Virus genome (UHGV): UHGV-0213320
Length of the DNA stretch: 39,655 bases
From: a virus
Direction: 5' to 3' (one strand)
Shown here piece by piece: positions 1,367 through 16,913 of this stretch. The notes under the pieces were generated by a model. That model saw nothing but the letters and a program-made list of their open reading frames with translations. It searched no databases and was not told where the DNA came from. The position numbers were made by a program, and so were the translations under genes. The number at the start of each line of letters is the position of its first letter. The first letter of the stretch is position 1.

Positions 1367-2022
1367 GAGATAGTGTTGTATTTTATCGCAGCTTCTGGGA
1401 AGCCATTAAGCAGCTGCCGGAAAAAGAAAGATTGGAATCTCTTACAGCAATCTTAGAATATGGACTTGATGAAATAGAGCCTAAATCGGCAGGTGTTGCA
1501 TCGGCAATGTTTTTAATGGCAAAACCACAAATTGATGCGAATAATCGCAGATACCAAAACGGAACCAAGGGTGGTAGGCCAGTAACCAAAACAGAACCAA
1601 ACAATAACCTAGAATCCAATTATAATAAACCAAGTGATAACCAAACCATAACCAAAGCAAAACCTAAGGAAAAGGATAATGTAAAGGAAAAGGATAATGT
1701 AAATGATAATAATAAAAAAACATTTACTCCACCTTCGGTGTCGGATGTGTCCGATTATTGCAATTTGAATGGATATGGCATTGACCCAGAGAGTTTTGTT
1801 GATTTTTATGCATCAAAGGGATGGATGGTTGGGAAAAACAAAATGAAGGATTGGAAAGCCTCGGTAAGAACATGGGCTAGAAGCCAGCGGCAGGAATTGA
1901 CCGCCAAAGGCAGTAAAAACCAGTTTCACAATTTTGACCAACGAGACACCGATTATGATGCATTGATGCTAAAACAGATACAGGACTGGTTAGGAGAGAA
2001 ACAGGATGAAGGAAATACATAA
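1363..2022 (+). CDS. Phage replication protein, DnaD-like/replisome-organiser family (phage conserved C-terminal domain)
   Basis: N-terminal motif FYRSFWEAIKQLPEKERLE and C-terminal motif YCNLNGYGIDPESFVDFYASKGWMVGKNKMKDWKASVRTWARSQ resemble the DnaD/phage replisome-organiser C-terminal domain. Internal KEKDNV tandem repeat. Confidence 0.65.
   Translation: MRDSVVFYRSFWEAIKQLPEKERLESLTAILEYGLDEIEPKSAGVASAMFLMAKPQIDANNRRYQNGTKGGRPVTKTEPNNNLESNYNKPSDNQTITKAKPKEKDNVKEKDNVNDNNKKTFTPPSVSDVSDYCNLNGYGIDPESFVDFYASKGWMVGKNKMKDWKASVRTWARSQRQELTAKGSKNQFHNFDQRDTDYDALMLKQIQDWLGEKQDEGNT
1669..1704 (+). repeat. Perfect 18-bp tandem duplication (aaggaaaaggataatgta x2) inside the DnaD-like gene
   Basis: Direct inspection. 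Encodes KEKDNVKEKDNV. Confidence 0.8.
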
Positions 2023-3520: not shown

Positions 3521-3750
3521 ATCTTAGTCCCACAATGATGCAGGTTACAGAACAAATGGAATTGCACGGTGAACTGATAAGATATCCTGGAGGATTTTGG
3601 TCTTGGCGAGACGTAGAAATCAAACGCAAGATTCCTGCATGGTATTGTGACGTGAAAACTCTTAGAGCACTTGGAAAAAGAGGGATTGTCAATCTTGATG
3701 AAACCAAGAAAATTTGTAAGCTAAAAACGCGATTTGGCAAAAGGAACTAA
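3517..3750 (+). CDS. Hypothetical protein
   Basis: 77-aa ORF coupled (ATGA overlap) to the methyltransferase stop. Confidence 0.35.
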   Translation: MNLSPTMMQVTEQMELHGELIRYPGGFWSWRDVEIKRKIPAWYCDVKTLRALGKRGIVNLDETKKICKLKTRFGKRN

Positions 3751-4555
3751 ACAAAACTATCTTAATGCCATACGAAGATTGCTGACAGAGATAAGCACAA
3801 AATCACTGGACCAGATGGATACCACTGATATTGATTGGTATTTATCGCGGTATGAAATTAGAAATGTATCTGCCGGGGGAAAGAAAAACCAGCCTAGTAC
3901 CTATAATAACGAGCGCAGATTTCTGTCAGCATTCTTCGCATGGATGCGCCTTGAAAAGCTTATTACAGATAATCCGATAGAGTCTATACCAGCTAAAAAA
4001 GTACCCATTAAACCAATTGATTACTACAGCCCAGAAGAATCTGCAAGGTTAAGGGATGCGTGCAAAAATATCCGTGAGAGAGCCTTGCTGGAGGTGCTTC
4101 GAAGTACTGGGGCCAGGATAGGGGAGATTGCAGAAATAACCCTGGACCAGATAGACATGAGAACAGGAGATGTATTAATTCAGGGGGAAAAAGGCGGTAG
4201 ATACCGTACTATATATTTGGATGATGATGCAAGATATTATTATGGCCTATACTTAGACAATCGGACAGATGATTGCCCATATATGTTTCCGCGTTCAAGG
4301 AAACCATATGGGAAAATGACTACTTGCGGTTTTCGAGCCATAATAAAATCCATAGGAAAAAGGGCAGGACTTACATGCAGGGTTTATCCGCACAAATCCA
4401 GAAAAACATTAGGAATGAATCTTAGAAATCACGGTGTAGAGATAGGAATTATACAGGAAATTTTTGGACATGCAAGTTCGGAAGTAACAATGAAATTTTA
4501 TGCTCAGACTGATAATAGAAGACTGCGTAGCATTAGGGAAAGGGTGGCAGTATAG
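3734..4555 (+). CDS. Small tyrosine site-specific recombinase (XerC/D- or FimB/E-like), probable TTG start
   Basis: Catalytic signature: RTGARIGEI (Arg I), HKSRKT (HxxR), GHASSEVTMKFY (catalytic Tyr). No N-terminal arm-binding domain (273 aa). The ORF overlaps the upstream gene, so the start is uncertain. Confidence 0.8.
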   Translation: MAKGTKQNYLNAIRRLLTEISTKSLDQMDTTDIDWYLSRYEIRNVSAGGKKNQPSTYNNERRFLSAFFAWMRLEKLITDNPIESIPAKKVPIKPIDYYSPEESARLRDACKNIRERALLEVLRSTGARIGEIAEITLDQIDMRTGDVLIQGEKGGRYRTIYLDDDARYYYGLYLDNRTDDCPYMFPRSRKPYGKMTTCGFRAIIKSIGKRAGLTCRVYPHKSRKTLGMNLRNHGVEIGIIQEIFGHASSEVTMKFYAQTDNRRLRSIRERVAV

Positions 4556-4560
4556 AAAGG

Positions 4561-4869
4561 ATGGACATGAGAACCAGATATAAAAACTACAGCGACTATG
4601 GTATTACTGATGATGAAGCTAAACGCATAAAAGAATACTGCCAGAACGCCATCGTAGAAGATAAGCTAACATTGTTCCAGTGTGCTATATCCTCGGCTCC
4701 TGGCCTGGAGGTGGAGATATACGAAAGCCTTGTAAGTAATATCGGATATGATAGGCTGAGCAAGCGAAAGAATATACCAATCAAACGGGATGACTTTTAC
4801 GGGTATCAAAGAAAAACGCTAGATGAATATAGGCGGTTGATGACATTGTTTGGGAGGTGGAAAGGATGA
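4561..4869 (+). CDS. Hypothetical protein
   Basis: 102-aa ORF with RBS GAAAGG 3 nt before the ATG. Confidence 0.4.
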   Translation: MDMRTRYKNYSDYGITDDEAKRIKEYCQNAIVEDKLTLFQCAISSAPGLEVEIYESLVSNIGYDRLSKRKNIPIKRDDFYGYQRKTLDEYRRLMTLFGRWKG

Positions 4870-5705
4870 CAATTAGTCATATAAAGGCAAGCGAGTTATT
4901 AAGAATTGGTGATAGCATCCGCAACCTAAGAAAAAATAAGGGATGGACGCAAAAGAAGCTTGCTATTGAAAGCGGAATTCACGAAGTACAGATACGCAGA
5001 TATGAAAATAATCATTCACTTCCTAGAGATGAACAATTGCAAAAACTTGCAACTGCTTTAGGGGTAGAAAACGATTTTTTCACACGAATGGAGAATATAT
5101 ATATGGCAGGAATTAATGATTACATAAGAATAGGGAAAAGAATAAAACAAGTAAGGATAAAATCAGGAATTTCACAAAAGGATATGGCAAAACGTCTCGG
5201 AATACCAGAATCCTCATGGTCAAATTATGAAAATGAAATTCGTGAACCAGGAATAAACTTGATATATTCGTTTTGTAAAGAAATGGGTATAACGATAGAT
5301 GAATTGATACGGATGGAGATTATGACAATTGGAGAAAACATTAAGAAATATCGCGAAAAAAAAGGATTGACACAAAAGGAATTGGGTGCAGCTTTAGGAT
5401 TAGCAGAAATTACAATTAGACAATACGAAAGCAACAAGCGTGAACCAAAATATGAAATCCTTTTTTCTATTGCAGATGCACTAAACATATCCATTGACGA
5501 TTTAATGAATATTGACACTGGAAAACGGATAAAAGAAGAAAGAGTAAAAGCAAAACTAACACAAGAAAAATTGGCCCAAAATGCGGAAATTTCTGTTTTC
5601 ACCTTACAGAAATATGAATCTGGGGACCGGAATCCTAAAATAGAACAATTAAAAAAAATAGCAAATGCTTTAGGAATATCAATTACTCAACTTAAGATTA
5701 TATAA
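4866..5705 (+). CDS. Transcriptional regulator made of four tandem HTH-XRE (Cro/C1-type) domains; candidate late-gene activator
   Basis: Four ~65-aa repeats each match the HTH_3 pattern (e.g. GWTQKKLAIESGIHEVQIRRYENN, GISQKDMAKRLGIPESSWSNYEN, GLTQKELGAALGLAEITIRQYESN, KLTQEKLAQNAEISVFTLQKYESG). RBS GGGAGGTGG before ATG 4866. Located immediately upstream of terS, the position where late activators usually sit. Confidence 0.8.
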   Translation: MTISHIKASELLRIGDSIRNLRKNKGWTQKKLAIESGIHEVQIRRYENNHSLPRDEQLQKLATALGVENDFFTRMENIYMAGINDYIRIGKRIKQVRIKSGISQKDMAKRLGIPESSWSNYENEIREPGINLIYSFCKEMGITIDELIRMEIMTIGENIKKYREKKGLTQKELGAALGLAEITIRQYESNKREPKYEILFSIADALNISIDDLMNIDTGKRIKEERVKAKLTQEKLAQNAEISVFTLQKYESGDRNPKIEQLKKIANALGISITQLKII

Positions 5706-5746
5706 AAAATGTGGGGACGATTTACATTACATGCGCATGGTAAAAT
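5706..5746 (+). promoter_or_regulatory. Candidate late promoter: 17-nt motif AAAATGTGGGGACGATT + 18-nt spacer + TAAAAT
   Basis: An identical 17-mer recurs at 15921-15937 with a 17-nt spacer and TAAAAT. Sits between the 4xHTH gene and terS, i.e. at the start of the late operon. Confidence 0.45.
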
Positions 5747-5789
5747 TAGTATAGGACTATTATGCCGTGTGAAGCACAAAGAATAAGGG

Positions 5790-6215
5790 GTGGTGATTGT
5801 GGCTTCCAGATTAACAGATAAACAGAAAAAGAAAATAATAGCTGATTATGTGGAATATGGAAGCTATCGTGCCACAGCAAAAAAATTCGGTGTTTCAGAT
5901 AACACAGTAAAAAACATATGCGCAAAAAGTGCAGATATTGCGCAGAAGTGCGCACAAAAAAAAGAACAGAACACAGCCGATATGTTGGCATATATGGATT
6001 CCAGGAAAGAACAAGCACAGGGTATTATTGATAAATATCTTGAAAAGCTGGCGGACCCGCATAAACTAGAAAATGCTACTATCTCCCAAATTGCAACAGC
6101 GATGGGGATAGTAGTTGATAAATTTATGGATAATACAAAAAAAGGAGAAAATGCAGAAGGAGTAACCATTTTGAATGATATACCAAAGCCGGGAAAGGGG
6201 AATGGTGATGCATGA
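5790..6215 (+). CDS. terS: Terminase small subunit
   Basis: 141 aa, N-terminal HTH-like segment (YRATAKKFGVSDNTVKN). Immediately upstream of and overlapping terL. GTG start (5790 or 5799) after AAGGGG. Confidence 0.65.
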   Translation: MVIVASRLTDKQKKKIIADYVEYGSYRATAKKFGVSDNTVKNICAKSADIAQKCAQKKEQNTADMLAYMDSRKEQAQGIIDKYLEKLADPHKLENATISQIATAMGIVVDKFMDNTKKGENAEGVTILNDIPKPGKGNGDA

Positions 6216-7465
6216 GTGACATAATAAATCTGACTGATGTAATCGCCCCTTCCTTTTATGACGTTCACTGGGATATCCTGGACGGAAAGCATACATATTA
6301 TGACCTCTATGGCGGGCGCGGCTCCACGAAGTCCTCTTTCATGTCCGTGGAAATTATACTGGGGATGATGCAGGACGAAAAGGACGGAGTTTTCAGCAAT
6401 TCGGCAGTATTTCGTAAGGTAGGAAACACCTTACGGGAATCTGTATTTGAACAAATTGCATGGGCGATTGATGCACTGGGGGCCAATGACCTGTGGGCGT
6501 CCAGTGTTAGCCCCATGCAGTATGTGTATAAACCCACTGGCCAGAAAATCATCTTCCGAGGACTGGACAAGGCGAAGAAAACGAAATCTATCAAGACGAG
6601 CCGAGGATATTTTAAATACCTCTGGTTCGAGGAATTGGACGAGTTTGCCGGGATTGAGGAAATCAGAACAGTGCAGCAGTCCGTCCTTCGTGGCGGGAGT
6701 AAATTTGTGGTGTTCAAGTCCTTCAACCCTCCAATCAGCCGGAGCAACTGGGCGAATGTGTACGTCAACGAGCCAAGAGAGGACAGCTGCCGGCACAAGA
6801 GCGACTATACCACAGTGCCGGAGGAATGGCTGGGAGAACAGTTTATAGCAGACGCCGAACATCTGAAAGCCACCAATCCAAGGGCATATGAACATGAATA
6901 CATGGGCAATCCCGTTGGACTGGGAACGAATATTTTTGATATGTTGGATGTGCGTACAATAACAGACGAAGAAATCAGCCGCATGGAGCGTATCTATCAA
7001 GGGCAAGACTGGGGCTGGTATCCTGACCCGAAAGCCTTTATCCGGGCGGCGTACATCCATAGCACTGAAACAATCTATCTGTTGGACGAGTTGGGCGGCT
7101 GTAAAATCCGTAACAGCCAAATGGCAGAGGATATAAAGGAAAAGGGCTATGATGATTATGAAATCCGCTGCGGCGCTGATGAACAGGAAAGCATAGTTGA
7201 CTTTAGGGATGCTGGACTTCCGGCCAGACAGGCCAATGTTGGGCCGGGTAGTGTGAAATATACCTTTGAATGGCTTCAGTGCCGGACAATCGTTATAGAC
7301 CCGGCCAGAACGCCGAGAGCATACAAGGAAATCATAGAGTATGAACATGAAGTAGACAGCAATGGGGAAGTGATTGCAGACTATCCAGACCACAATAACC
7401 ACTGGATAGACGCTCTGCGGTATGCTACAAGCCCACTGTCAATGAGGAGAGGAAACAGCGCATGA
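6212..7465 (+). CDS. terL: Terminase large subunit
   Basis: Walker A motif YGGRGSTKS, 417 aa, packaging-module position. Higher local GC. Confidence 0.9.
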   Translation: MSDIINLTDVIAPSFYDVHWDILDGKHTYYDLYGGRGSTKSSFMSVEIILGMMQDEKDGVFSNSAVFRKVGNTLRESVFEQIAWAIDALGANDLWASSVSPMQYVYKPTGQKIIFRGLDKAKKTKSIKTSRGYFKYLWFEELDEFAGIEEIRTVQQSVLRGGSKFVVFKSFNPPISRSNWANVYVNEPREDSCRHKSDYTTVPEEWLGEQFIADAEHLKATNPRAYEHEYMGNPVGLGTNIFDMLDVRTITDEEISRMERIYQGQDWGWYPDPKAFIRAAYIHSTETIYLLDELGGCKIRNSQMAEDIKEKGYDDYEIRCGADEQESIVDFRDAGLPARQANVGPGSVKYTFEWLQCRTIVIDPARTPRAYKEIIEYEHEVDSNGEVIADYPDHNNHWIDALRYATSPLSMRRGNSA

Positions 7466-7650
7466 TTTATATATTGATTTTAATTTATTTATTAATCGGG
7501 ACTATTGTTTCTGGATTTATGCAAGTAAACGGAGAGACTTCGTTGATTCCGTTGTTCTTTTGGCCGTTGACATTATTTCTTATGCTAATCTTTGGCGCAT
7601 TTAATCTTGCGTTTTTCATAGGCGAAAAAATAGCAGAAAAAATCAGGTGA
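7462..7650 (+). CDS. Small two-TM membrane protein (holin-like topology)
   Basis: 62 aa with two hydrophobic helices and a charged C-terminus (EKIAEKIR). ATGA overlap with the terL stop. Confidence 0.4.
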   Translation: MIYILILIYLLIGTIVSGFMQVNGETSLIPLFFWPLTLFLMLIFGAFNLAFFIGEKIAEKIR

Positions 7651-7654
7651 CTAA

Positions 7655-9088
7655 ATGGGACTAATAACATGGGCTAAAAAGGTGATAGGAATGATATTTA
7701 AGCGACAAGCGGAAGAAGATTTTAATGTTGAATCGGTGGTATCCCCGGAGATGGAAAGCAAGATTACAGAGTGCGCCAATATCTACCGGGGTACTCCCTA
7801 TTGGGTGAATGCTGACGATAACGTTAAGACAATCAATTTTGCAAAGGCTATTTGTTCAGATACGGCCCGGCTTGCTACCTTGGCAATCGGAATACAGATT
7901 GATGGGAGCGCGCGGGCGGCGTGGCTTCAGGAGCAGATTGATAAGATATATTTCCAGATTAGGCACTGGGTAGAATATGGTATGGCCTACGGCACAATCA
8001 TACTTAAGCCAAACGGTAAGGGACTGGACATATTCACACCTATGGATTTTATCATTACGGATTGCGATAATGAAGGTATCTATGGGATTGTGTTCAAGGA
8101 TGGCTACAGCGAAAATAATAAGTATTACACCCGATTTGAGTATCATCGGTTTGTCGAAGTCAAGGATGGGGAAAACATCTATTACCCATATTACATATCC
8201 AATAGAGCCTATGTGTCTCACTCTGCAAAAAGCGTGGGGGACCCAATAGCATTAAATAGGACTAAGTGGTCCGACTTGCTTCCAGAGACACCACCTATAC
8301 TCAAAGCTAACAATGATAAAATAGACGGACCCATGTTTGGCATACTCCGTACTCCACAGGCTAACAATGTGGATATTTCATCACCTTTGGGATTGCCAAT
8401 GTTCACAGAAGCAATCGAGGAATTAAAAGACCTTGATGTAGCATACAGCCGAAATGTTGGTGAAATATTTGACAGTGAGAAAATTATATTAGCAGACGAC
8501 CAGCTGATGTTTGGAAGCGGCACAAACATTAAGGGGCGCTATGCTGGTATGAGCAACGAAAAGCTTCCTCATTATGTAAAAAATGTATTTGGAAATGGAA
8601 CGGAATCTTTCTATCAGGAGATTGTTCCATCATTGAATACTGATATCAGAATTACTGGAATAAATAACCTACTCTCGTTTGTGGGATTTAAGTGTGGATA
8701 TTCCAACGGGTACTTTGTGCTTGATGAAAAAACAGGAATGGTCACAGCCACACAGGTAGAGGCTGACGACAGGAGAACCATACAGCTAATCAAGGATGTA
8801 CGTGACAAGCTGGAAAGTTGTCTTGACGGGGCAATATATGCTCTCAATGTATATGCTGACCTGTATGGGCTTGCTCCGGCAGGGGCCTACGAAATAACAT
8901 ATGATTTTGGAGACATTACATATAACCGAGAGGAGGACCGGGCAAGATGGTGGCAGTATGTTGTGCAGGGGAAGGTGCCGGCCTGGATATATTTTCAGAA
9001 ATTTGAAGGGTTATCCGAAGAAGATGCAAAGGCTATGGTGCAGGAAGCGCAACCTAAAGAACGTCCGGGATTTTTTGGGGAGGAATAG
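7655..9088 (+). CDS. Portal protein
   Basis: 477 aa, directly after terL. Size and position typical of siphovirus portals. Confidence 0.75.
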   Translation: MGLITWAKKVIGMIFKRQAEEDFNVESVVSPEMESKITECANIYRGTPYWVNADDNVKTINFAKAICSDTARLATLAIGIQIDGSARAAWLQEQIDKIYFQIRHWVEYGMAYGTIILKPNGKGLDIFTPMDFIITDCDNEGIYGIVFKDGYSENNKYYTRFEYHRFVEVKDGENIYYPYYISNRAYVSHSAKSVGDPIALNRTKWSDLLPETPPILKANNDKIDGPMFGILRTPQANNVDISSPLGLPMFTEAIEELKDLDVAYSRNVGEIFDSEKIILADDQLMFGSGTNIKGRYAGMSNEKLPHYVKNVFGNGTESFYQEIVPSLNTDIRITGINNLLSFVGFKCGYSNGYFVLDEKTGMVTATQVEADDRRTIQLIKDVRDKLESCLDGAIYALNVYADLYGLAPAGAYEITYDFGDITYNREEDRARWWQYVVQGKVPAWIYFQKFEGLSEEDAKAMVQEAQPKERPGFFGEE

Positions 9089-9090
9089 AT

Positions 9091-9897
9091 ATGGAAACAT
9101 TAAGATTCAAAGTAGAGAAACAACATATTGAATATATTTCTCCGCATCCATATCTTGTGGCAGGAACCGAATCGAACATAGAATACTTTATCTACATATA
9201 TCAAGGATTATCGGATATCAATGAAATAGTGTATCCCATGCTTAATGCTGGACCCACTGCTCTACCATATCAGCCCTACCAGTCCAGTACCGCAACCATC
9301 ACCCTGACGGCGCCGTTACGCGGTATCGGGGATGTACGGGACAGGATAATGTGCAGGGATGGCGTGTGGGGTGTGGAAAGGCAATTCGTGTCATTGACTT
9401 TTGACGGGAGTGAGAATTGGATTGCCTCAAACACTGGATACGCGAACAAGAATCGTTTTTGGTTTGGGGGCTATGAAAATGTTATAAGACATGAGACTAA
9501 TTCAAATGTAGGAATAAAAATATTATGTGACAAACTTCCGGGAGAATCCAGTGGAGACACTTATAGGTGTATTGATGGCATATCATCCAATATGGTTGGA
9601 CGGATTATGGTATATTTAGATGATTTTAGTTCAGGTGATGTGTCAGCTTTTAAGACTTATTTATCAACACATCCCATATCGGCCATCTTTGAACTTGCCA
9701 CCCCCACCTGGGAACCCCTCCCCTCCGCGACCCAATCCGCCCTGAACGCACTTACCACCTACACCGGCACCACCCATGTGACCATCACCGCAGGAGGGCC
9801 GGAACCGGATGTGGCGGTGGAGTACGTGCAGGATACAAACGTTGTGATTGCTGAGTTAAAAAAACTGATAGAAGGGATGCAGAATGTTAAGCCCTAA
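9091..9897 (+). CDS. Hypothetical protein between portal and gp7-like gene (possible insertion)
   Basis: 268 aa, beta-rich with a T/P-rich segment. Not the usual portal-gp7 arrangement. Confidence 0.4.
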   Translation: METLRFKVEKQHIEYISPHPYLVAGTESNIEYFIYIYQGLSDINEIVYPMLNAGPTALPYQPYQSSTATITLTAPLRGIGDVRDRIMCRDGVWGVERQFVSLTFDGSENWIASNTGYANKNRFWFGGYENVIRHETNSNVGIKILCDKLPGESSGDTYRCIDGISSNMVGRIMVYLDDFSSGDVSAFKTYLSTHPISAIFELATPTWEPLPSATQSALNALTTYTGTTHVTITAGGPEPDVAVEYVQDTNVVIAELKKLIEGMQNVKP

Positions 9898-11101
9898 TTA
9901 TCTACAGCATATAGCAGATGGAAGTGAAGAAATAGCCTCCCAGCTCCATACATACATCATACGACAGATAATAGACCGCATGATGATACGTATTGGGCGC
10001 GGAGATGATTATTTGCTTACATCCTCTGACAGATGGCGCATTCAGATATTACAGGATGCAGGATATCTGCTGGAGGATATTACGGTAGAGTTATCCAAAG
10101 TCACTAAACGGCAGGAAAAAGAAATCAAGGCTGCTATGGAAGAAGCGGGAATCAAGGCACTGGAATACGACCACAGAATATATGAAGCTGCTGGTTTATC
10201 TCCAATTCCTCTTACTCAATCCCCGCAGCTTATTCGTCTGATGGAACGTAACATGAATGCTACGATGGGAGAATGGCAGAATTATACCAGAACAACCGCA
10301 GAAGCCGCACAGAGGATTTTTATTCATGAATGCGACAATGCTTACCATCTTGTATCTTCAGGGGCTGTATCATACACACAGGCTGTCAAAGAGGCGGTTG
10401 ATAATGTAGTATCTGGTGGAGTGATAGTACACTATCCTTCGGGCCATAAAGATACCATAGAAACTGCTACAGCACGCGCGGTACGAACCGGAGTAGCCCA
10501 GGCTACAGGTGATATCTCGATTAAGCGCATGGAGGAAATGAACTGGGATATCATACTGGTGTCAGCACACATCGGAGCCAGAACTGGGGACGGGGGACAG
10601 AATCCAGGAAATCATTTATGGTGGCAAGGGCAATTTTACAGCCGGACCGGAAAAAATAAGCGCTTCCCTCCATTTTCACAGACTGGATTCGGAACGGGTG
10701 AGGGATTATGTGGGTGGAACTGCCGCCATAGTTTTGGAAGCGGGGATGGGGTAAACAATCCGTACAAAGACATCCAGACCGCAGACAACTATAAGGTTGA
10801 GCAATTGGAGAAGCGGCAGAGAACGCTTGAACGGCGCATTAGAAAGACCAAACGTGAAGTTATGGGAATGCAAGAGGCAGTAGATAAGTGCAAGGATGAA
10901 CCGGCTAAATTTGAAATGCAGCTTGAACTTGACCGTAAATCATATCTGTTACAGCGTCAGAATAAAGCATACAACGAGTTTTGTAAAACGAACGACTTGC
11001 GCACCCAGCAGGAACGGTTGCAGATTGCAAAATGGAACCGGGAGCAGGCCGCAAAGGCCAGGGGAGCAGCGAGGCGGTATCAAAATGCGAAAGGGGAATA
11101 A
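9884..11101 (+). CDS. Head morphogenesis protein, SPP1 gp7 / Mu gpF family
   Basis: 405 aa. C-terminal GWNCRHSF matches the H-NCRC signature of the gp7/MuF family, followed by a coiled-coil tail. Located after the portal. Confidence 0.75.
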   Translation: MLSPNYLQHIADGSEEIASQLHTYIIRQIIDRMMIRIGRGDDYLLTSSDRWRIQILQDAGYLLEDITVELSKVTKRQEKEIKAAMEEAGIKALEYDHRIYEAAGLSPIPLTQSPQLIRLMERNMNATMGEWQNYTRTTAEAAQRIFIHECDNAYHLVSSGAVSYTQAVKEAVDNVVSGGVIVHYPSGHKDTIETATARAVRTGVAQATGDISIKRMEEMNWDIILVSAHIGARTGDGGQNPGNHLWWQGQFYSRTGKNKRFPPFSQTGFGTGEGLCGWNCRHSFGSGDGVNNPYKDIQTADNYKVEQLEKRQRTLERRIRKTKREVMGMQEAVDKCKDEPAKFEMQLELDRKSYLLQRQNKAYNEFCKTNDLRTQQERLQIAKWNREQAAKARGAARRYQNAKGE

Positions 11102-11103
11102 AT

Positions 11104-11487
11104 TTGAATAGATGGAAACCATATAACCCTAACCCAGTTCGTAATCAGCGTGTAGGCGACTGTGCCATACGTGCAATCTGCAAAGCAACTGGACAGGATT
11201 GGGAAACCTCATTTGCTGGTGTTATGGTGGTGGCGTGCGAGAAGTCAGATATGCCGTCAGCTAACAGCGTGTGGGGGACATATCTCAGGCGCAACGGATT
11301 CCGGCGAAACATTATACCAAACGAATATCCAGAAGATTATACTGTGGAAGAATTTGCGTCAGACCACCAGAACGGAGTGTTTGTTCTTGGGCTTGATGGT
11401 CATGTGGTAACGGTTGTAGACGGATTTTACTGGGACACATGGGACAGCGGGCAGGAGATACCAATATACTACTGGGAAAGGCGATAA
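11104..11487 (+). CDS. Putative papain-like (C39-like) cysteine peptidase domain protein
   Basis: TTG start after AGGGG RBS. Motif NQRVGDCAIRAI (Gln...Cys) and GLDGHVVTVVDG (Gly-His) resemble the catalytic Cys/His dyad of the papain/C39 fold. Confidence 0.4.
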   Translation: MNRWKPYNPNPVRNQRVGDCAIRAICKATGQDWETSFAGVMVVACEKSDMPSANSVWGTYLRRNGFRRNIIPNEYPEDYTVEEFASDHQNGVFVLGLDGHVVTVVDGFYWDTWDSGQEIPIYYWERR

Positions 11488-11490
11488 CTT

Positions 11491-11784
11491 ATGGAAACAT
11501 TAAACTCTATTATGGTTGTATGTGGTTGGCTTATTACTCTTGGAGGCGCAGGAACCGTAATATATAAATTGTTGCATCCGGCATTTAAGCTAAAAAACAG
11601 AGTGGATAAATTAGAAATAAATGTGGAAAAAGATTATAAATCTATCCAAGAAATAAGAGATATGCAATCTCTTTTATGCCAGGGAATGATAGCATTAATT
11701 GATAATCGTATAACCGGTAACAACATAGAGGGTTTAAAAAAAACCAAAGAAGCTATGATAAAGCATTTGTCAGAAGGTATTTAA
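11491..11784 (+). CDS. Small membrane protein (N-terminal TM + coiled coil)
   Basis: 97 aa with N-terminal hydrophobic helix IMVVCGWLITLGGAGTVIY. Confidence 0.4.
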   Translation: METLNSIMVVCGWLITLGGAGTVIYKLLHPAFKLKNRVDKLEINVEKDYKSIQEIRDMQSLLCQGMIALIDNRITGNNIEGLKKTKEAMIKHLSEGI

Positions 11785-11795
11785 GGAGTGTTGCT

Positions 11796-11996
11796 TTGAA
11801 GGTGTATGACTTTACAGTGCCAGAACTAAATTATTTTCGTACATATTGTAACTTTACGGATGAAGAACGGGCGCTGTTTGAGTACCGGGCCAAGAACTAT
11901 CCTTTAGAGTATTGCGCTGAATTAATGAATGTTAGTGTCTCTACAGCAAAGCGGTTAAGTAGAAAAGTAAACAACAAAATAATACGTGTATGTTGA
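11796..11996 (+). CDS. Mini sigma-70 region-4-like HTH protein
   Basis: 66 aa. Motif FTDEERALFEYRAKNYPLEYCAELMNVSVSTAKRLSRKV resembles sigma region 4 (L..RER.V...R...G.S..EIA..L.VS..TV). TTG start after AAGGAG. Confidence 0.45.
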   Translation: MKVYDFTVPELNYFRTYCNFTDEERALFEYRAKNYPLEYCAELMNVSVSTAKRLSRKVNNKIIRVC

Positions 11997-12022
11997 TACT
12001 TGCGTGATACTTTTATAAGTCT

Positions 12023-12060
12023 TTGACGAACTGTCAAGGGCTTATTTTTTATGTGATAAT
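12023..12060 (+). promoter_or_regulatory. Promoter-like element (TTGACG / TGTCAA ... TGTGATAAT extended -10) with a short dyad TTGACgaactGTCAA
   Basis: Extended -10 TGtGATAAT at 12052-12060. Dyad at 12024-12038. Precedes the run of strongly RBS-ed accessory genes. Confidence 0.3.
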
Positions 12061-12088
12061 TGGTATATAAAAGAACGGAGGGGATATA

Positions 12089-12559
12089 ATGCCGCAACCA
12101 TTTATCAATCCAAACTATCTTAATGCATATCCAAACGCATACCCGTATCAGCCGCAGATGCAACCACCTATGGACCGATTGCAGCAGCTACAAGCACCAT
12201 ATCAGATGTCGCAACAAACACAAGTTCCGCAGGTTCCTCAGACGAATCAGGGAATATTATGGGTGCAGGGTGAGGCCGGGGCAAAGTCGTATTTAGTAGC
12301 GCCCAGCACATCTATATTGCTGATGGACAGCGAAAATGAGTATTTTTACATTAAGACGACCGATGCGGCAGGGATGCCAACACTTCGCACTTTTGAATAT
12401 AAAGAGATTGTTAATGGACAGAAAAAGGAATCTGTACCGACTGAAAATCTTGACGAAAAATATGTTACCAGAAACGAGTATCAGGATTTAAAGGCAAAAT
12501 ATGATGAATTGTACGGCCTTTTAGAATCCAGCACAGCGCCAAGCGGAAAGGGGAAATAA
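12089..12559 (+). CDS. Q/P/Y-rich low-complexity protein (spore-coat-like composition)
   Basis: 156 aa. N-terminus PQPFINPNYLNAYPNAYPYQPQMQPP. Strong RBS GGAGGGG. Confidence 0.5.
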   Translation: MPQPFINPNYLNAYPNAYPYQPQMQPPMDRLQQLQAPYQMSQQTQVPQVPQTNQGILWVQGEAGAKSYLVAPSTSILLMDSENEYFYIKTTDAAGMPTLRTFEYKEIVNGQKKESVPTENLDEKYVTRNEYQDLKAKYDELYGLLESSTAPSGKGK

Positions 12560-12562
12560 TAT

Positions 12563-12811
12563 ATGAATCCATTATTTAGCATGTTGGGCGGCGGCTCACC
12601 AATGGGTGGCATGATTCCTGGAATGGGTGGGGGAAATAACCCAATGCAGATGATTCAGAAGTTCATGGAATTTAAAAACAATTTCAGGGGAAACCCTCAG
12701 GAAGAAGTACAGAAGATGCTACAGTCCGGCCAGATAACTCAGCAGCAGTTAGACCAGGCACAACAGATGGCCCAGCAGTTTCAGCAGATGCTTGGAGGCA
12801 TGAAAAAATAG
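12563..12811 (+). CDS. Gly/Met/Gln-rich low-complexity protein
   Basis: 82 aa: MLGGGSPMGGMIPGMGGGNNPMQ ... QQQLDQAQQMAQQFQQMLGG. RBS GGAAAGGGG. Confidence 0.45.
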   Translation: MNPLFSMLGGGSPMGGMIPGMGGGNNPMQMIQKFMEFKNNFRGNPQEEVQKMLQSGQITQQQLDQAQQMAQQFQQMLGGMKK

Positions 12812-12866
12812 TACATAAATCAATGCGCATGATTTTGTAAATATATTTTAAAAGGAGTAAATAATT

Positions 12867-13577
12867 ATGGATTCAGGCTATAGTTTAGCAGACATTGCTG
12901 CCGCTACAGGTGGAACAAACCGAAACAATGATGGCTTTGGAGATGGCGGCGCATGGTGGATTATTATACTGTTTTTGTTTGTTTTCTGCGGCTGGGGCAA
13001 TGGCAACGGCTTTGGAAACAATGGAGCAGGAGGGGCCGGATTGCAGGGATTAGCAACACGTGCAGACATCAATGAGGGATTTGCCCTCAACGGAATCGAA
13101 AATGGTATAAGGGGAATTCAGCAGGGAATCTGTGATAGCACATATGCGCTGAACAACACCATTACCAGCGGTTTCAGTGGAGTGGACCGTAGCTTATGCC
13201 AGATGGGCTATCAGCTCCAGGATTGCTGCTGCCAGACACAGCGCGCAATTGATGGTGTAAATTACAATCTGGCGACACAGTCCTGTGATACCAGAAATAC
13301 CATTCAGACTGCAACCAGAGATATTCTGGACAACAACAACAGCAACACAAGAGCTATTCTTGACTTCTTAACCCAAGATAAGATTTCCACCTTACAGGCA
13401 GAGAATCAGACACTTAGGTTCCAGGCAAGTCAGACTGCCCAGAACGGATTTATTGATGCAGTTGGTAACTCAATCGTTGCCCAGCTTCGTCAGCCACAGC
13501 CTGTACCGGCTTATACAGTACCGGCACCATATCCATATGCATCTAACTGTGGATGCAATGCTGGTTGCGGATGCTAA
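12867..13577 (+). CDS. Gly/Cys-rich membrane protein, YjcZ-like (tiny-TM sporulation family-like) N-terminus, C-terminal CGCNAGCGC
   Basis: 236 aa. TM segment WWIIILFLFVFCGW flanked by G/N-rich repeats, CCC cluster and C-terminal CGCNAGCGC. RBS AAAAGGAG. Confidence 0.5.
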   Translation: MDSGYSLADIAAATGGTNRNNDGFGDGGAWWIIILFLFVFCGWGNGNGFGNNGAGGAGLQGLATRADINEGFALNGIENGIRGIQQGICDSTYALNNTITSGFSGVDRSLCQMGYQLQDCCCQTQRAIDGVNYNLATQSCDTRNTIQTATRDILDNNNSNTRAILDFLTQDKISTLQAENQTLRFQASQTAQNGFIDAVGNSIVAQLRQPQPVPAYTVPAPYPYASNCGCNAGCGC

Positions 13578-13848
13578 CTCGAAACGAACAGTTTTACGAT
13601 AATCTTGCTTTATATGCAGCAACATTACAAATGATTAATGTATTTTTGCTTTTGGGAGAAGCTTCTAATAATGATATTATGGAGGCATTACAACAGCAAA
13701 ATAAAGAGTATATGGAAAAGATTATCGAACAAAACAACCGTATATTGCGTATCTTGTCCGAATAGGACATGTCTACTGAACAGTAGTATTACACACATAG
13801 AGGGGTAGGCACAGGCTTGCCCTTCTGTGCATATAAGGAGGATTTATT

Positions 13849-14247
13849 ATGGCAGATTTTGTAACTGCTGGTACACAGACTGTAGAAGTCAATGCAAGCG
13901 TTCTGTTTGCAGCCAACCGGATATATTCTTGCAATTGCCCAAACATAAGGCATGAGCCGCTTTCCGGTAGAGTGGTGTTACTTCCGGGATTATACCGTGT
14001 AGGTTTTAATGGTAATTTTTCAGCCGCAGCCGCAGGTGATGTTATCTTTGAAGTGCAGCAGGACGGCGAAGGTATTCCCGGAGCAAGAATCCAGAATACA
14101 GTCGCAGCTGGAGCAACAATCAATGGTGCAGCAACTGTAGAAGTGCGGGTATGTAAGCCATGTTGCGCTACGCTCTCGGTGAAAAACGTTGGAGCCGCAG
14201 CAGCAACGGTAACAGACTCTAACCTTGTTGTTAGCAGAATAGGTTAA
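13849..14247 (+). CDS. BclA C-terminal-domain-like (C1q/TNF jelly-roll-like) protein
   Basis: 132 aa. Pattern VEVNASVLF...LPGLYRVGFNGNFSAAAAGDVIFEVQQDG...ATINGAATVEV...LSVKNVGAAAATVTDSNLVVSRIG is typical of the exosporium BclA_C fold. Strong RBS AAGGAGG. Confidence 0.5.
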   Translation: MADFVTAGTQTVEVNASVLFAANRIYSCNCPNIRHEPLSGRVVLLPGLYRVGFNGNFSAAAAGDVIFEVQQDGEGIPGARIQNTVAAGATINGAATVEVRVCKPCCATLSVKNVGAAAATVTDSNLVVSRIG

Positions 14248-14259
14248 GGAGGTAAGGCT

Positions 14260-14799: not shown

Positions 14800-14802
14800 T
14801 CT

Positions 14803-14830
14803 AAAAGGCAGGATTAACTTCCTGCCTTTT
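14803..14830. terminator. Bidirectional rho-independent terminator (AAAAGGCAGGA-ttaac-TTCCTGCCTTTTT)
   Basis: Near-perfect 10-11 bp GC-containing stem with an A-run on one side and a T-run on the other, between convergent genes. Confidence 0.7.
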
Positions 14831-15791: not shown

Positions 15792-15864
15792 TAAGTAACC
15801 CCTTCCTATATTCGATATTATACCATAAGAACGAGAAACAATCAATTGGTATATAGTTAGAAAG

Positions 15865-15898
15865 TGGGGATAAGAAAAGTAAAATAATCTGGTATAAT
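15865..15898 (+). promoter_or_regulatory. Extended -10 promoter (TGGTATAAT) upstream of the KTR moron
   Basis: TGgTATAAT at 15890-15898. Confidence 0.3.
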
Positions 15899-15920
15899 GA
15901 GAGGGGATATCTAACCTTAC

Positions 15921-15960
15921 AAAATGTGGGGACGATTATTCCTTATGAATATAGTAAAAT
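15921..15960 (+). promoter_or_regulatory. Second copy of late-promoter motif AAAATGTGGGGACGATT + 17 nt + TAAAAT
   Basis: Identical 17-mer to 5706-5722. Drives the KTR zinc-ribbon gene. Confidence 0.45.
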
Positions 15961-15991
15961 GGGAGTAAGAATAAACAGAAAGGGTGAAAAC

Positions 15992-16162
15992 ATGGTAAAA
16001 GATGGTTGGGTTTACTGCCCTATATGTAATAATAAGACAAGAACAAAAATAAGAAAAGATACAGAAGCCAAGAATTTACCTGTGTTTTGCCCAAAGTGCA
16101 GGAATACAACTGTTATGGATATATATGGAAGTGAAATAAAAAGAATGCAAAGCATTAAATAG
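15992..16162 (+). CDS. Cysteine-rich KTR-type zinc-ribbon protein (moron)
   Basis: 56 aa. MVKDGWVYCPICNNKTRTKIRKDTEAKNLPVFCPKCRNT matches the Cys-rich KTR pattern (CPxC..KTR...CPKC). RBS AAGGGTG. Own promoter and terminator. Confidence 0.6.
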   Translation: MVKDGWVYCPICNNKTRTKIRKDTEAKNLPVFCPKCRNTTVMDIYGSEIKRMQSIK

Positions 16163-16182
16163 AGCCAGTCGCCAGTCGCAGA

Positions 16183-16222
16183 GCCATACAGATTACAGCA
16201 ATGTAGTTTGCATGGCTTTTTA
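16183..16222 (+). terminator. Rho-independent terminator after the KTR gene
   Basis: GCCATACAGATTACAG...GTAGTTTGCATGGC hairpin (13 of 15 paired) followed by TTTTT. Confidence 0.6.
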
Positions 16223-16511
16223 CTATATTTGAACCTCCCTCCTATAGCACATGTCCTTAACAGAAACAGGTCCTAGCTCATAGAGTAAACGGCCTGTAGG
16301 TTGAAAAGCGGATGCAATTTCCGGCATGTGCATTCCTTCTAAAGGCTATCCTCCTCCCGTAATGGAGATAGAAAAAACTTGTCAGTTATGACCTGGACGA
16401 AACTGAAAAATGATACGGCATTGTTTTGGTGGGATATCGGCGGGCTGACAGCATTTCAGAGTACATATGCGGCGCAAAAAGGCGTGACGAGGAGTTTTCA
16501 AGAAATGCAAT

Positions 16512-16584
16512 CGGGAAATAGCTCAGTTGGTAGAGCAGCAGCCTTATAAGCTGTGTGTCAGAGGTTCGATTCCTCTTTTCCCGA
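16512..16584 (+). tRNA. tRNA-Ile (anticodon UAU, AUA decoder)
   Basis: Manual fold: acceptor CGGGAAA/TTTCCCG, D-arm GCTC-AGTTGGTA-GAGC, anticodon arm GCAGC-CTTATAA-GCTGT (anticodon TAT), T-arm AGAGG-TTCGATT-CCTCT, discriminator A. No encoded CCA. Confidence 0.75.
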
Positions 16585-16733
16585 TGTAGTCGGGTCGCTC
16601 CCGGATGATGTGAGAGCACGCAGAATGCCTCACAGAAAATGACAATGCCTGCTGAAAACTACTGCGATAGTTCCAGGGACTAGGACACGGGACTGAAATT
16701 CGCAGTGTGACAATCTAAGCAGGAACTGCATCA

Positions 16734-16822
16734 TGAGGATTCGCCAAGCGGTTAAGGCACCGGGTTTTGACCCCGGCAAAGAAGGAACACTCTTTACGCT
16801 GGTTCAAATCCAGCATCCTCAG
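16734..16822 (+). tRNA. tRNA-Gln(UUG)-like with anomalous 21-nt variable arm
   Basis: Acceptor TGAGGAT/ATCCTCA (U1:A72, G2:C71), discriminator G73. D-arm UCGCCAAGCGGUUAAGGCA is near-identical to canonical bacterial tRNA-Gln. Anticodon arm CCGGG-TTTTGAC-CCCGG (anticodon UUG), T-arm GCTGG-TTCAAAT-CCAGC. Between the anticodon and T arms there is a 21-nt stem-loop (CAAAGAAGGAACACTCTTTAC) instead of a 4-5 nt variable loop. Confidence 0.6.
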
Positions 16823-16913
16823 TTTTGGACACGCCAAGTCCTACAAAATGGCAAACCGTTGGTGGACGGTTACACACCTACAAATAACCTAATAACGGAA
16901 AAGGAGAATCATC

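What the first reader, a model, noticed from the sequence alone, without database searches (positions are those of the whole stretch)
5706..5746. Conserved 17-nt element AAAATGTGGGGACGATT + TAAAAT marks late promoters (second copy at 15921-15960)
An identical 17-mer followed 17-18 nt later by TAAAAT occurs immediately upstream of terS (start of the late operon) and upstream of the KTR zinc-ribbon moron. There is no good -35 hexamer, so the 17-mer probably replaces it as an activator-dependent or alternative-sigma promoter. The most likely activator is the 4xHTH protein directly upstream (4866-5705), which occupies the RinA/ArpU late-activator position. The mini sigma-r4 protein at 11796 is a second candidate.
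Basis: seen in the sequence. Interest (0 to 1): 0.7.

Follow-up and report, generated by a model that had tools for sequence, protein, structure and literature searches.

The report
Shared late-promoter element of gut phages
The repeated 17-base sequence is real and is very probably the recognition element of two late-gene promoters in a family of temperate phages of gut Lachnospiraceae, but the four-HTH protein proposed to read it is replaceable cargo, and two small sigma-region-4-like proteins are the better candidates.

Summary
Observation confirmed. AAAATGTGGGGACGATT occurs exactly twice (5706, 15921, + strand), followed after 18 and 17 nt by TAAAAT, with no usable -35.

It is not chance. 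The exact 17-mer occurs in 55 IMG/VR stretches, and 54 sit in the same two contexts: before terS, or before KTR/scaffold. Conservation begins at the element while the upstream context varies.

In six related phage lineages, the two sites of one genome share a lineage-specific version of the element: GGGGAC, GGGTAC, GTATAC or GG(A/T)AC. It always lies 21-22 nt upstream of a TAnnnT hexamer. This fits sigma-A -10 recognition plus a phage-encoded reader replacing -35 recognition.

The two conserved candidates are:
- A 100-aa basic protein (4567-4866) of an unannotated family, sigma-4-like in fold. It ends the early operon and abuts the terS-side element in several lineages. I favour it at about 45%.
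- The 66-aa free-standing sigma region 4 protein (11796-11996), at about 25%.

No transcription start site or binding data exist. I class it as a new member of the activator-dependent phage late promoter kind.

The parts
5706..5722 (+). Upstream promoter element, copy 1 (terS-side, 'type B'). The core AAATGTGGGGAC is at 5707-5718, inferred to span about -45 to -34.
   Evidence: Exact 17-mer. The same element with the same spacer family occurs before terS or an alternative first late gene in 6 IMG/VR stretches and 2 bacterial prophages. Variants AAAATGGAGGGACGGTT (L024) and TAAATGTGGGGACGGTT (L341) keep the spacing.
5738..5746 (+). Inferred extended -10, TGgTAAAAT (hexamer 5741-5746). Inferred transcription start around 5753-5754.
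   Evidence: Read from the sequence. Across lineages the hexamer varies only within TAnnnT (TAAAAT, TATAAT, TAATAT, TATTAT, TACTAT, TACAAT) at a constant 21-22 nt from the core. The start site is an inference and has not been mapped.
15921..15937 (+). Upstream promoter element, copy 2 (scaffold/KTR-side, 'type A').
   Evidence: Exact 17-mer. 48 IMG/VR stretches carry it before KTR, with at least 5 unrelated upstream contexts, usually a terminator hairpin; conservation starts at the element. 75 of 79 loci retrieved through the scaffold protein alone carry a member of the element family at this position.
15955..15960 (+). Inferred -10 hexamer TAAAAT of copy 2. Inferred transcription start around 15967.
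   Evidence: Read from the sequence. Invariant while the 17-nt spacer varies among relatives.
4567..4869 (+). Favoured candidate activator: a 100-aa basic protein (pI 9.07) of an unannotated family. It is the last conserved gene of the early operon.
11796..11996 (+). Second candidate: a 66-aa free-standing sigma-70 region 4 domain, encoded inside the first late transcription unit and followed by a terminator.
4866..5705 (+). 4xHTH (Xre-type) protein: variable cargo between the 100-aa gene and the promoter, and an unlikely reader of the element.
   Evidence: Four HTH_3 domains. Replaced or absent in relatives that keep the same element.
5790..6215 (+). terS-like gene, the first gene of late transcription unit 1. 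It is followed by terL (6212-7465), portal (7655-9088) and minor head protein (9884-11101).
12015..12045 (+). Intrinsic terminator after the sigma-4 gene.
   Evidence: fold dG -15.5 kcal/mol, z -4.95.
14803..14830 (.). Bidirectional terminator hairpin closing the block before the HNH gene. It explains why a second promoter is needed.
   Evidence: Fold dG -16.9 kcal/mol, z -5.1. Relatives have terminator hairpins directly upstream of the type-A element.
15992..16162 (+). Cys_rich_KTR zinc-ribbon gene (56 aa), the first gene after copy 2. It is optional cargo in the leader.
   Evidence: Pfam PF14205, E 1.6e-19. Absent at this position in G4, G5 and L040, which keep the promoter.
16180..16224 (+). 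Terminator-like hairpin plus U-run after KTR. Its effect on transcripts from copy 2 is unexplained.
   Evidence: Fold dG -20.5 kcal/mol, z -3.7. Relatives have a longer perfect hairpin.
16246..16913 (+). Leader of the scaffold operon: RAGATH-21 RNA (16246-16332), tRNA-Ile (16511-16585), tRNA-Gln (16734-16822) and the GP20-b motif (16827-16891). The scaffold gene (16914-17537) and major head gene (17537-18709) follow.

Best explanation
The 17-mer is the upstream recognition element of two late promoters of a temperate Lachnospiraceae phage.

How it most likely works:
- Host sigma-A RNA polymerase reads the TAAAAT -10 hexamer, which is TGn-extended at the terS site. There is no -35.
- In its place, the 12-nt core AAATGTGGGGAC, lying 21-22 nt upstream of the -10 (about -45 to -34), is bound by a phage-encoded factor that recruits or stabilises polymerase, in the manner of a class-II activator.
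- Promoter 1 (5706-5746) starts the packaging and head-accessory unit (terS onward).
- Promoter 2 (15921-15960) restarts late transcription after terminators and the reverse-strand HNH gene. It drives KTR and, by read-through, the RNA-motif leader and the scaffold/capsid operon.

This is the last conserved gene of the early operon, analogous to the Ltr/RinA class of late activators.

What is shown: the element, its spacing, its recurrence and its co-evolution between the two sites. What is inferred: promoter activity, start sites, timing and the identity of the factor.

The confidence of 0.5 is for the statement as a whole, including the less certain identity of the factor.
For: 1. Recurrence. 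The exact 17-mer occurs in 55 IMG/VR stretches, 54 of them in the two syntenic contexts with TAAAAT 17-18 nt downstream.

2. Module boundary. At least 5 unrelated upstream contexts occur at each site and conservation starts at the element. The spacer varies while the element and hexamer do not.

3. Surveys not selected on the motif. 75 of 79 scaffold-anchored loci and 61 of 80 loci anchored on the 100-aa protein carry a family member 21-22 nt before TAnnnT.

4. Concerted change of both sites within a genome, in six lineages:
- G1 and G4: AAATGTGGGGAC at both sites.
- G3: AAATGTGGGGAT / AAAAGTGGGGGAC.
- G2: ..ATGGGTAC / ..GGGGTAC.
- G5 (Dulem virus 35): AAAGGTGTATAC at both sites.
- G6: AAATGG(A/T)AC.
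Meanwhile the -10 drifts only within TAnnnT.

5. Lineage-specific, not a host regulon. Among 185,579 species genomes, only two prophages carry it (Enterocloster hominis and a Dorea sp. MAG); about 110 other matches are chance.

6. No copy lies in the immunity region, so it is not a CI operator.

7. Terminators precede promoter 2.

8. Evidence for gp4567-4866:
- It is conserved upstream of the terS-side element in every lineage, and its stop codon abuts or overlaps the element in G2, G4, G5, L328 and L040.
- It is basic.
- Residues just before the invariant DFY motif differ by lineage in step with the element: KRDD/KEDD with GGGGAC, GRKD with GGGTAC, SKTD with GTATAC.
- L040 keeps both promoters and this protein but has no homologue of the 66-aa protein between them.
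Against: - There are no experimental start sites, no expression timing and no binding data.
- It matches none of the Ltr family models.
- In some lineages its homologue sits mid-early region after a DUF6291 gene, far from terS, and G4 carries two paralogues.
- The lineage L364-L369 keeps a 'DD' helix but has a different element, AAATATGGTGAT, so the residue-to-base correlation is not clean.
- The 66-aa sigma-4 protein co-varies with the element just as well.
- A terminator-like hairpin after KTR leaves it unclear how far promoter 2 transcripts extend.
- A canonical TGgTATAAT lies 24 nt upstream of copy 2, so copy 2 could partly lie in a 5' leader.
Confidence: 0.5

Rival explanations
1. The promoters are as described, but the element is read by the 66-aa free-standing sigma region 4 protein (11796-11996). 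It would dock on RNA polymerase in place of, or beside, sigma-A region 4 (sigma appropriation). It would be primed by read-through from the early operon and would then amplify its own transcription unit and switch on promoter 2.
For: - The 3' half of the element (GGGGAC, GGGTAC, GG(A/T)AC) resembles the ECF -35 motif GGAAC (own knowledge). G6 has TGGAAC itself.
- Residues at the positions that contact DNA in ECF sigma-4 differ by lineage in step with the element: KR..RK in G1 and G4, KR..QR in G2, NR..KD in G5, GR..VK in G6.
- It is present in G1, G2, G4, G5 and G6.
- In the window, no terminator separates the early operon from promoter 1.
Against: - It is encoded downstream of the promoter it would activate.
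- In L369 a terminator hairpin, and in G6 a terminator-like T-run, precedes the terS-side promoter, which makes priming by read-through unlikely.
- L040 has a complete terS-to-scaffold unit with both promoters and no homologue.
- G4 variants with changed helix starts (STEK, STVK, STIN) keep the same element.
- The element lies 3-4 bp further from the -10 than any sigma-70 or ECF -35.
- To my knowledge there is no precedent for a free sigma-4 domain acting this way.
Confidence: 0.25
2. One reading: the 4xHTH Xre-type protein (4866-5705), encoded directly upstream, binds the 17-mer and activates both promoters.
For: - It is a DNA-binding protein with four HTH_3 domains.
- It is adjacent to copy 1 and translationally coupled to the 100-aa gene through an ATGA overlap.
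- An asymmetric multi-HTH protein could read a long asymmetric site.
Against: - The same or near-identical element is kept in phages where this gene is a 2xHTH version, an unrelated 117-aa gene, or absent.
- The conserved DNA spans only 12-17 nt, not the roughly 40 nt expected for four HTH domains.
- Xre-type proteins at this position vary as cargo does.
Confidence: 0.05
3. These are factor-independent sigma-A promoters: an extended -10 plus an A-rich, UP-like 5' part. The G-rich core is conserved for another reason, such as an operator for a repressor or timing factor.
For: - TGn precedes the -10 at the terS-side site in most lineages.
- The element begins with an A-tract.
- Extended -10 promoters can work without a -35 in Firmicutes (own knowledge).
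Against: - The scaffold-side copies mostly lack TGn.
- The G-rich core changes in both sites of a genome together, which implies a specific, co-evolving reader.
- There is no copy in the immunity region.
- Constitutive late promoters would be harmful in a lysogen.
Confidence: 0.1
4. The element is a loading site for a Q-like antiterminator, or a non-transcriptional DNA or RNA signal such as a packaging site, a recombination site or a structured RNA.
For: - Several terminators punctuate the late region, including one after KTR.
- Copy 1 is next to terS.
Against: - There is no sigma-A -35 to give the constitutive promoter that Q systems need.
- A second promoter placed after terminators argues against processive antitermination.
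- The scaffold-side copy is not near packaging genes.
- The two copies share no RNA structure (z -1.6 and -2.0, with different pairings).
- The fixed distance to a TAnnnT hexamer is a promoter property.
Confidence: 0.05

Closest known systems
Ltr late transcriptional regulators of Gram-positive phages (RinA/ArpU, LtrA sigma70_r4-like, LtrB DUF1492, LtrC) and their terS promoters (PMC3753634, PMC3152322)
   Same: [quoted passage not shown]
- Its target is a phage-specific promoter immediately upstream of terS that starts the morphogenesis genes.
- Some families are sigma-region-4-like or about 100 aa long.
   Different: - The 100-aa protein matches none of the Ltr family models.
- The target is a single asymmetric 12-17-nt element at about -40, not a repeat region.
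- A second copy restarts transcription before the scaffold gene, whereas Ltr phages were reported to use one late promoter.
- No function has been tested here.
T4 middle promoters (MotA box plus sigma-70 -10, with AsiA): sigma appropriation (own knowledge)
   Same: The host -10 is kept and the -35 is replaced by a phage-specific box read by a phage protein. If gp11796 takes part, a sigma-4-related step would be involved.
   Different: - The MotA box is centred at -30, whereas this element spans about -45 to -34.
- MotA and AsiA are unrelated in sequence.
- No AsiA-like partner has been identified.
Mu Mor/C and P2 Ogr/P4 Delta late activators (own knowledge)
   Same: Late promoters lacking a -35, with an activator site centred roughly at -43 to -55, and small phage-encoded activators.
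   Different: Those sites are dyad-symmetric and this element is asymmetric. There is no Pfam match to Mor, and the Ogr-type zinc finger is unrelated. The KTR zinc ribbon is optional cargo here.
[not shown]
   Same: A GGnAC-type motif preceded by A/T-rich sequence, and candidate readers with a sigma-4 fold.
   Different: - The -10 is sigma-A-like TAnnnT.
- The spacing is 21-22 nt, not about 16-18.
- No protein with a sigma region 2 was found among the roughly 40 window ORFs scanned.

Membership tests
Ltr superfamily (RinA/ArpU, LtrA, LtrB/DUF1492, LtrC) | The protein matches one of the family models (ArpU/RinA TIGR models, Sigma70_r4, DUF1492, LtrC). | tested here: not met
   gp4567-4866 has no Pfam hit at E<=0.01 and no NCBIfam hit at E<=1 apart from noise. 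None of 60 family members hits these families at E<=0.1. gp11796 does resemble Sigma70_r4.
Ltr superfamily | [quoted passage not shown] | tested here: met
   100 aa, pI 9.07. It is the last conserved early gene and is directly adjacent to the terS-side promoter in L328, L040, G2, G4 and G5. In the window it is separated from the promoter only by the 4xHTH cargo gene. Exceptions: it lies mid-early region in the L348/P0010 lineage.
Ltr superfamily | Binds a DNA repeat region upstream of terS and is sufficient to activate the late promoter. | not testable with these tools
   No repeat structure is seen within or beside the element. Binding and activation need EMSA and reporter assays.
Sigma-70 family sigma factor (alternative sigma reading of the promoter) | Region 2 (-10 recognition and core binding) together with region 4. 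| tested here: not met
   gp11796 is region 4 only, at 66 aa. gp4567 has at most a region-4-like fold. No Sigma70_r2 hit appears among the roughly 40 window ORFs scanned; several small early ORFs and the tail and lysis genes were not scanned.
Sigma-A-type promoter | A -10 hexamer TAnnnT plus a -35 TTGACA-like hexamer at 16-18 nt. | tested here: not met
   The -10 is present and conserved as TAnnnT. The -35 position matches TTGACA at 2 of 6 or fewer, and the consensus scan calls neither site.
ECF-type promoter | A GGAAC-like -35, a spacer of about 16-18 nt, and a CGTC-like -10. | tested here: not met
   A GGnAC-like motif is present, but the spacing is 21-22 nt and the -10 is TAAAAT-like in all lineages.
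Lambda-type Q antitermination (QBE at a late promoter) | A constitutive sigma-70 promoter with a -35, a sigma-dependent pause element, and a terminator soon after. | tested here: inconclusive
   [not shown]
Phage CI/Cro operator | Copies of the site in the immunity region between the repressor and the early genes. | tested here: not met
   No copy with 3 or fewer mismatches lies outside the two late sites. The only 4-mismatch match is inside the integrase gene.

The most novel reading that the evidence does not exclude
The late switch of this phage family uses two unrelated sigma-region-4-like mini-proteins with a division of labour.
- The early 100-aa protein acts as the promoter-specific activator.
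- The late 66-aa free-standing sigma-4 domain has one of two roles. It may replace sigma-A region 4 on RNA polymerase to read the displaced, ECF-like GGnAC element: sigma appropriation by a free sigma-4 module, with positive feedback. Or it may act as a sigma-4 decoy that shuts off -35-dependent host and early promoters while the -35-less late promoters stay active, which is AsiA-like logic without AsiA.

To my knowledge neither role has been described for a stand-alone sigma-4 protein.
Probability: 0.2. Interest if true: 0.75.

Novelty: new member of a known kind. Interest (0 to 1): 0.5.

Why it matters
Late-gene control is essentially unstudied in temperate phages of gut Lachnospiraceae such as Enterocloster and Dorea. 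This analysis gives four usable things:
- A precise, testable promoter architecture: a 12-nt core, 21-22 nt of spacer, then TAnnnT.
- Six natural specificity variants that could serve as swap experiments.
- Two small candidate regulators. One belongs to an unannotated family with hundreds of cluster representatives. The other is a free-standing sigma region 4.
- A cultured lysogen in which to test them, Enterocloster hominis CLA-SR-H021.

If confirmed, the result would add a fifth protein family to the Ltr-type late activators. It would also provide inducible, orthogonal promoter and activator pairs for genetically difficult gut Clostridia. And it would improve annotation of late operon starts in several hundred metagenomic phage contigs (55, 75 and 116 IMG/VR stretches for three variants).

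Tried and rejected
- **Megablast of 4500-17000 against GenBank phages.** No useful relative.
- **RNA role.** Folding both copies gave no shared structure. Rfam finds nothing at the element itself.
- **CI operator.** No copy lies in the immunity region.
- **Host regulon.** The degenerate scan of 185,579 genomes found only two prophages plus about 110 chance matches.
- **Homology between the two candidate proteins.** hhalign found none.
- **Sequence search of PDB with both family profiles.** Nothing significant.
- **Separating the two candidates by phyletic pattern.**
  - Dulem virus 35 first looked as if it lacked the 66-aa protein by tblastn, but a profile search found it.
  - MT835516 has both proteins.
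  - Only L040 lacks it, and that contig is partial.
- **Covariation of helix residues with the element.** It fits both proteins, so it is not decisive.
- **Walking downstream from the mid-early homologue lineage (L348) to find its late promoter.** No late genes were reached.
- **Fetching LtrA of staphylococcal phage 37 for a direct comparison.** Abandoned because the record has only ORF numbers.
- **Literature.** Nothing relevant for 'cysteine-rich KTR' or for the motif string. One search on 'RAGATH, GP20' was wasted on drug names.
- **AFDB fold library.** Unavailable.

Full report
**1. The observation**

AAAATGTGGGGACGATT occurs at 5706-5722 and 15921-15937, both on the + strand. TAAAAT follows after 18 nt (5741-5746, preceded by TGG) and after 17 nt (15955-15960).

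No further copy exists with up to 3 mismatches. With 4 mismatches, only one extra match appears, inside the integrase gene.

The 17-mer is the longest dispersed exact repeat in the window. A chance 16-mer pair also exists, so the repeat alone would be weak evidence.

The hexamers at the canonical -35 distance match TTGACA at 2 of 6 positions or fewer, and the sigma-70 consensus scan does not call either site. One correction: the KTR gene starts at ATG 15992, not at the GTG inside the 17-mer.

**2. Genome context**

The window is a complete-looking temperate siphophage genome, organised as follows.
- Integrase (32606-33769, minus strand) and a lysogeny module.
- An early operon running from about 35524 across the window end to 5705. 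It includes an anti-repressor, a DUF6291 protein, a C5 methylase and a tyrosine-recombinase-like protein.
- Late genes: terS-like 5790, terL 6212, portal 7655, minor head 9884.
- A conserved block of unknown genes (11032-14799). It includes a 66-aa sigma-r4-like ORF (11796) that is followed by a terminator (12015-12045).
- A terminator at 14803-14830.
- A reverse-strand HNH endonuclease (14814-15845).
- Copy 2 of the 17-mer, the KTR gene, and a terminator-like hairpin.
- RAGATH-21 RNA, two tRNAs and the GP20-b RNA motif.
- Scaffold (16914), major head protein (17537), then tail and lysis genes.

Copy 1 therefore sits at the early/late junction. Copy 2 sits where late transcription has to restart after terminators and an opposing gene.

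**3. Recurrence**

The exact 17-mer is found in 55 IMG/VR stretches. Of these, 54 lie in one of two contexts syntenic with the window.
- Type A (48 stretches): 17-mer, 17 nt, TAAAAT, a conserved leader, then KTR.
- Type B (6 stretches): 17-mer, the spacer TACATTACATRCGCATGG, TAAAAT, a conserved leader, then terS or an alternative first late gene.

The one remaining hit (L004) lacks TAAAAT and the synteny, and is a chance match.

At each site there are at least five unrelated upstream contexts. For type A these are usually the terminator hairpin of the preceding operon. Sequence conservation starts at the element, which is how the 5' boundary of a promoter module behaves.

Variants found in relatives keep the spacing:
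- AAAATGGAGGGACGGTT
- TAAATGTGGGGACGGTT
- CAAATGTGGGGACACTT, followed by TATAAT
- AAAATGTGGGGATGGAT

Two surveys that were not selected on the motif gave the same picture. A family member lies 21-22 nt before a TAnnnT hexamer in 75 of 79 loci retrieved through the scaffold protein, and in 61 of 80 loci retrieved through the 100-aa protein family.

**4. Co-evolution of the two sites**

More distant relatives carry different versions of the element, and in each genome both sites carry the same version.

| Lineage | terS-side site | Scaffold-side site | -10 hexamers |
|---|---|---|---|
| G1 (window) | AAATGTGGGGAC | AAATGTGGGGAC | TAAAAT |
| G4 (~116 IMG/VR stretches; MT835739.1) | AAATGTGGGGAC | AAATGTGGGGAC | TAATAT; TATTAT/TACTAT |
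| G3 | AAAAGTGGGGGAC | AAATGTGGGGAT | TAAAAT |
| G2 (75 stretches) | TAAAAGGGGTAC | AAACATGGGTAC | TAAAAT |
| G5 (Dulem virus 35, PP511522.1) | AAAGGTGTATAC (45120) | AAAGGTGTATAC (10403) | TACAAT; TAAAAT |
| G6 (MT835516.1) | AAAAATGGAAC | AAAATGGTAC | TATAAT; TAAAAT |

The distance from the terminal AC of the core to the hexamer is always 21-22 nt. The hexamer varies only within TAnnnT, which keeps the positions most important for sigma-A -10 recognition (the last point is own knowledge).

The sequences flanking the two sites within a genome are unrelated. Gene conversion is therefore an unlikely cause of the shared version. The simplest reading is a shared, co-evolving, phage-encoded reader.

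A degenerate scan of one genome for each of 185,579 species found the element only in two prophages: Enterocloster hominis CLA-SR-H021, and an uncultured Dorea sp. MAG whose type-A flank is identical to the window. About 110 other matches were chance. The element is therefore not a host regulon motif.

**5. What the element is not**

- Not a CI operator: no copy lies in the immunity region.
- Not a structured RNA: the two copies fold differently and not significantly. In type-A contexts the element lies downstream of terminators, not upstream.
- Not a typical Q-type late promoter: there is no -35, and a second promoter is placed after terminators.

**6. Who reads it**

- a 2xHTH version (L024, L330 group),
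- an unrelated 117-aa gene (L045/46/55),
- other sequence (the two bacterial prophages),
- nothing at all (L328, L040, G2, G4, G5).

*The 100-aa protein (4567-4866).* The conserved neighbour of the terS-side site is this protein, whose sequence starts MRTR.
- In G2 and G5 its stop codon overlaps or abuts the element. In G4, L328 and L040 it lies about 20 to 165 nt upstream.
- It is basic, with pI 9.07.
- It has no Pfam or NCBIfam match, and its PHROG family (11237) has unknown function.
- The family has 393 cluster representatives at 50% identity.
- A distant member in G6 has a classic HTH-like ...ISRTHFYRKKKMAL....

*The 66-aa protein (11796-11996).*
- Some homologues hit Pfam Sigma70_r4 and Sigma70_r4_2.
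- It is conserved in G1, G2, G4, G5 and G6.
- The 3' half of the element (GGnAC) resembles an ECF -35 motif.

*Weighing the two.* In both proteins, residues at the start of the putative recognition helix differ by lineage in step with the element. That test does not separate them.

Points against the 66-aa protein as the primary reader:
- It is encoded inside the unit it would switch on.
- A terminator hairpin precedes the terS-side promoter in L369, and a terminator-like T-run does in G6.
- L040 has a complete terS-to-scaffold unit with both promoters and no homologue.
- Helix variants within G4 keep the same element.

Points against the 100-aa protein:
- Its fold evidence is weaker.
- Its homologues lie mid-early region in some lineages.
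- G4 has two paralogues.
- The L364-369 lineage shows an imperfect residue-to-base correlation.

My estimates for the primary reader are:
- the 100-aa protein, about 45%;
- the 66-aa protein, about 25%;
- the 4xHTH protein, about 5%;
- the remaining quarter or so covers the non-activator readings of the site and an unidentified factor.

**7. Mechanism proposed**

Sigma-A holoenzyme uses the -10 (TGn-extended at the terS site). The element at about -45 to -34 is occupied by the phage factor, which replaces -35 recognition in the manner of a class-II activator.
- Promoter 1 drives terS through the accessory block, ending at the terminators at 12015-12045 and 14803-14830.
- Promoter 2 drives KTR and, by read-through, the RNA-motif leader and the scaffold/capsid operon.

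In KTR-less lineages, promoter 2 sits directly before that leader. KTR with its terminator therefore looks like a cassette inserted into the leader.

Three things remain unexplained:
- How transcripts pass the hairpin at 16180-16224.
- Why a canonical TGgTATAAT lies in tandem 24 nt upstream of copy 2 (it is also present in L023, which has no HNH gene).
- Why the element lies 3-4 bp further upstream than any normal -35.

**8. Comparison and novelty**

In function and position this is an Ltr/RinA-type late promoter and activator arrangement. In architecture (a -10 kept, a -35 replaced by a phage-specific box) it resembles T4 MotA-dependent and Mu Mor-dependent promoters.

It is not a member of those protein families by any test I could run. 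The element, its two-site layout and both candidate proteins appear undescribed: a literature search for the motif found nothing relevant.

I class it as a new member of a known kind (activator-dependent phage late promoters), with interest 0.5. The more novel possibility is that a stand-alone sigma-4 domain takes part in sigma appropriation or host shut-off. My evidence does not exclude it (about 20%).

Noticed in passing
window 16246-16891: Between KTR and the scaffold gene lie RAGATH-21 RNA (RF03097, 16246-16332, 79.7 bits), tRNA-Ile(TAT) at 16511-16585, an unusually long 89-nt tRNA-Gln(TTG) at 16734-16822, and the GP20-b motif (RF03003, 16827-16891). The mechanical ORFs 16379-16549 and 16733-16978 are therefore not genes.
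   Followed up: partly
window 16180-16224: A terminator-like hairpin plus U-run directly follows the KTR gene (dG -20.5 kcal/mol, z -3.7). Relatives have a longer perfect hairpin. Promoter, KTR and terminator together look like a cassette inserted into the leader of the scaffold operon.
   Followed up: partly
window 14814-15845 (-) and 15862-15897: The reverse-strand HNH endonuclease is present or absent among close relatives, right next to promoter 2. The insert-bearing variants carry a degenerate partial copy of the element with the wrong spacing: AAAGTGGGGATAAG...TAAAAT at 15862-15885, and AATGTGGGGATACGAAGAGTAAAAT in L002. A canonical extended -10, TGgTATAAT, lies at 15889-15897, and is also present in L023, which has no HNH gene.
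   Followed up: partly
window 4866-5705 and the same slot in L024, L045, L046, L055, L008: The slot between the 100-aa gene and the late promoter is a cargo hot-spot. It holds a 4xHTH protein, a 2xHTH protein, or a 117-aa unknown protein. In L008 the 4xHTH ORF is split in two.
   Followed up: partly
window 3734-4555: A second tyrosine recombinase-like gene (273 aa; Phage_integrase plus SAM-like N-terminal domain) lies in the early operon next to the 100-aa gene, in addition to the integrase at 32606-33769. The pair is conserved in G1 and G3, and is in reversed order in L364-L368.
   Followed up: no
window 12058-12086 and 15844-15872: A 29-nt imperfect direct repeat, AATTGGTATATA...GGGGATA, occurs twice. 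One copy lies just after the terminator at 12015-12045 and before ORF 12089. It contains TGgTATATA, a possible sigma-A extended -10 for the 12089-14799 block.
   Followed up: no
window 1666-1703: A tandem duplication with an 18-nt period (AAGGAAAAGGATAATGTA; the 20-mer at 1666 recurs at 1684) lies inside the DUF6291 ORF 1363-2022.
   Followed up: no
L370 1130-1442 and 3501-3800; L533 (MT835739.1) 13821-14072 and 10180-10503: Lineage G4 carries two paralogues of the 100-aa protein family, one mid-early region and one abutting the late promoter. In other lineages (L348, L352, L171) the single homologue directly follows a DUF6291 gene. The family may have a second, early-module role.
   Followed up: partly
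window 5790-6215: The terS-like protein has an N-terminal sigma-r4/HTH-like segment (Sigma70_r4_2, E 8.4e-6). Relatives replace the first late genes with other sets: a Cys-rich 63-aa ORF, an HNH-like ORF starting 'MNLSSIMKKLQRAIL', and a different terS, all behind the same promoter.
   Followed up: no
window 4866-5705: NCBIfam lists the Wolbachia WO male-killing protein Wmk among the matches of the 4xHTH protein (E 1.3e-33, well below that model's cut-off). This probably reflects only the shared tandem-HTH architecture.
   Followed up: no
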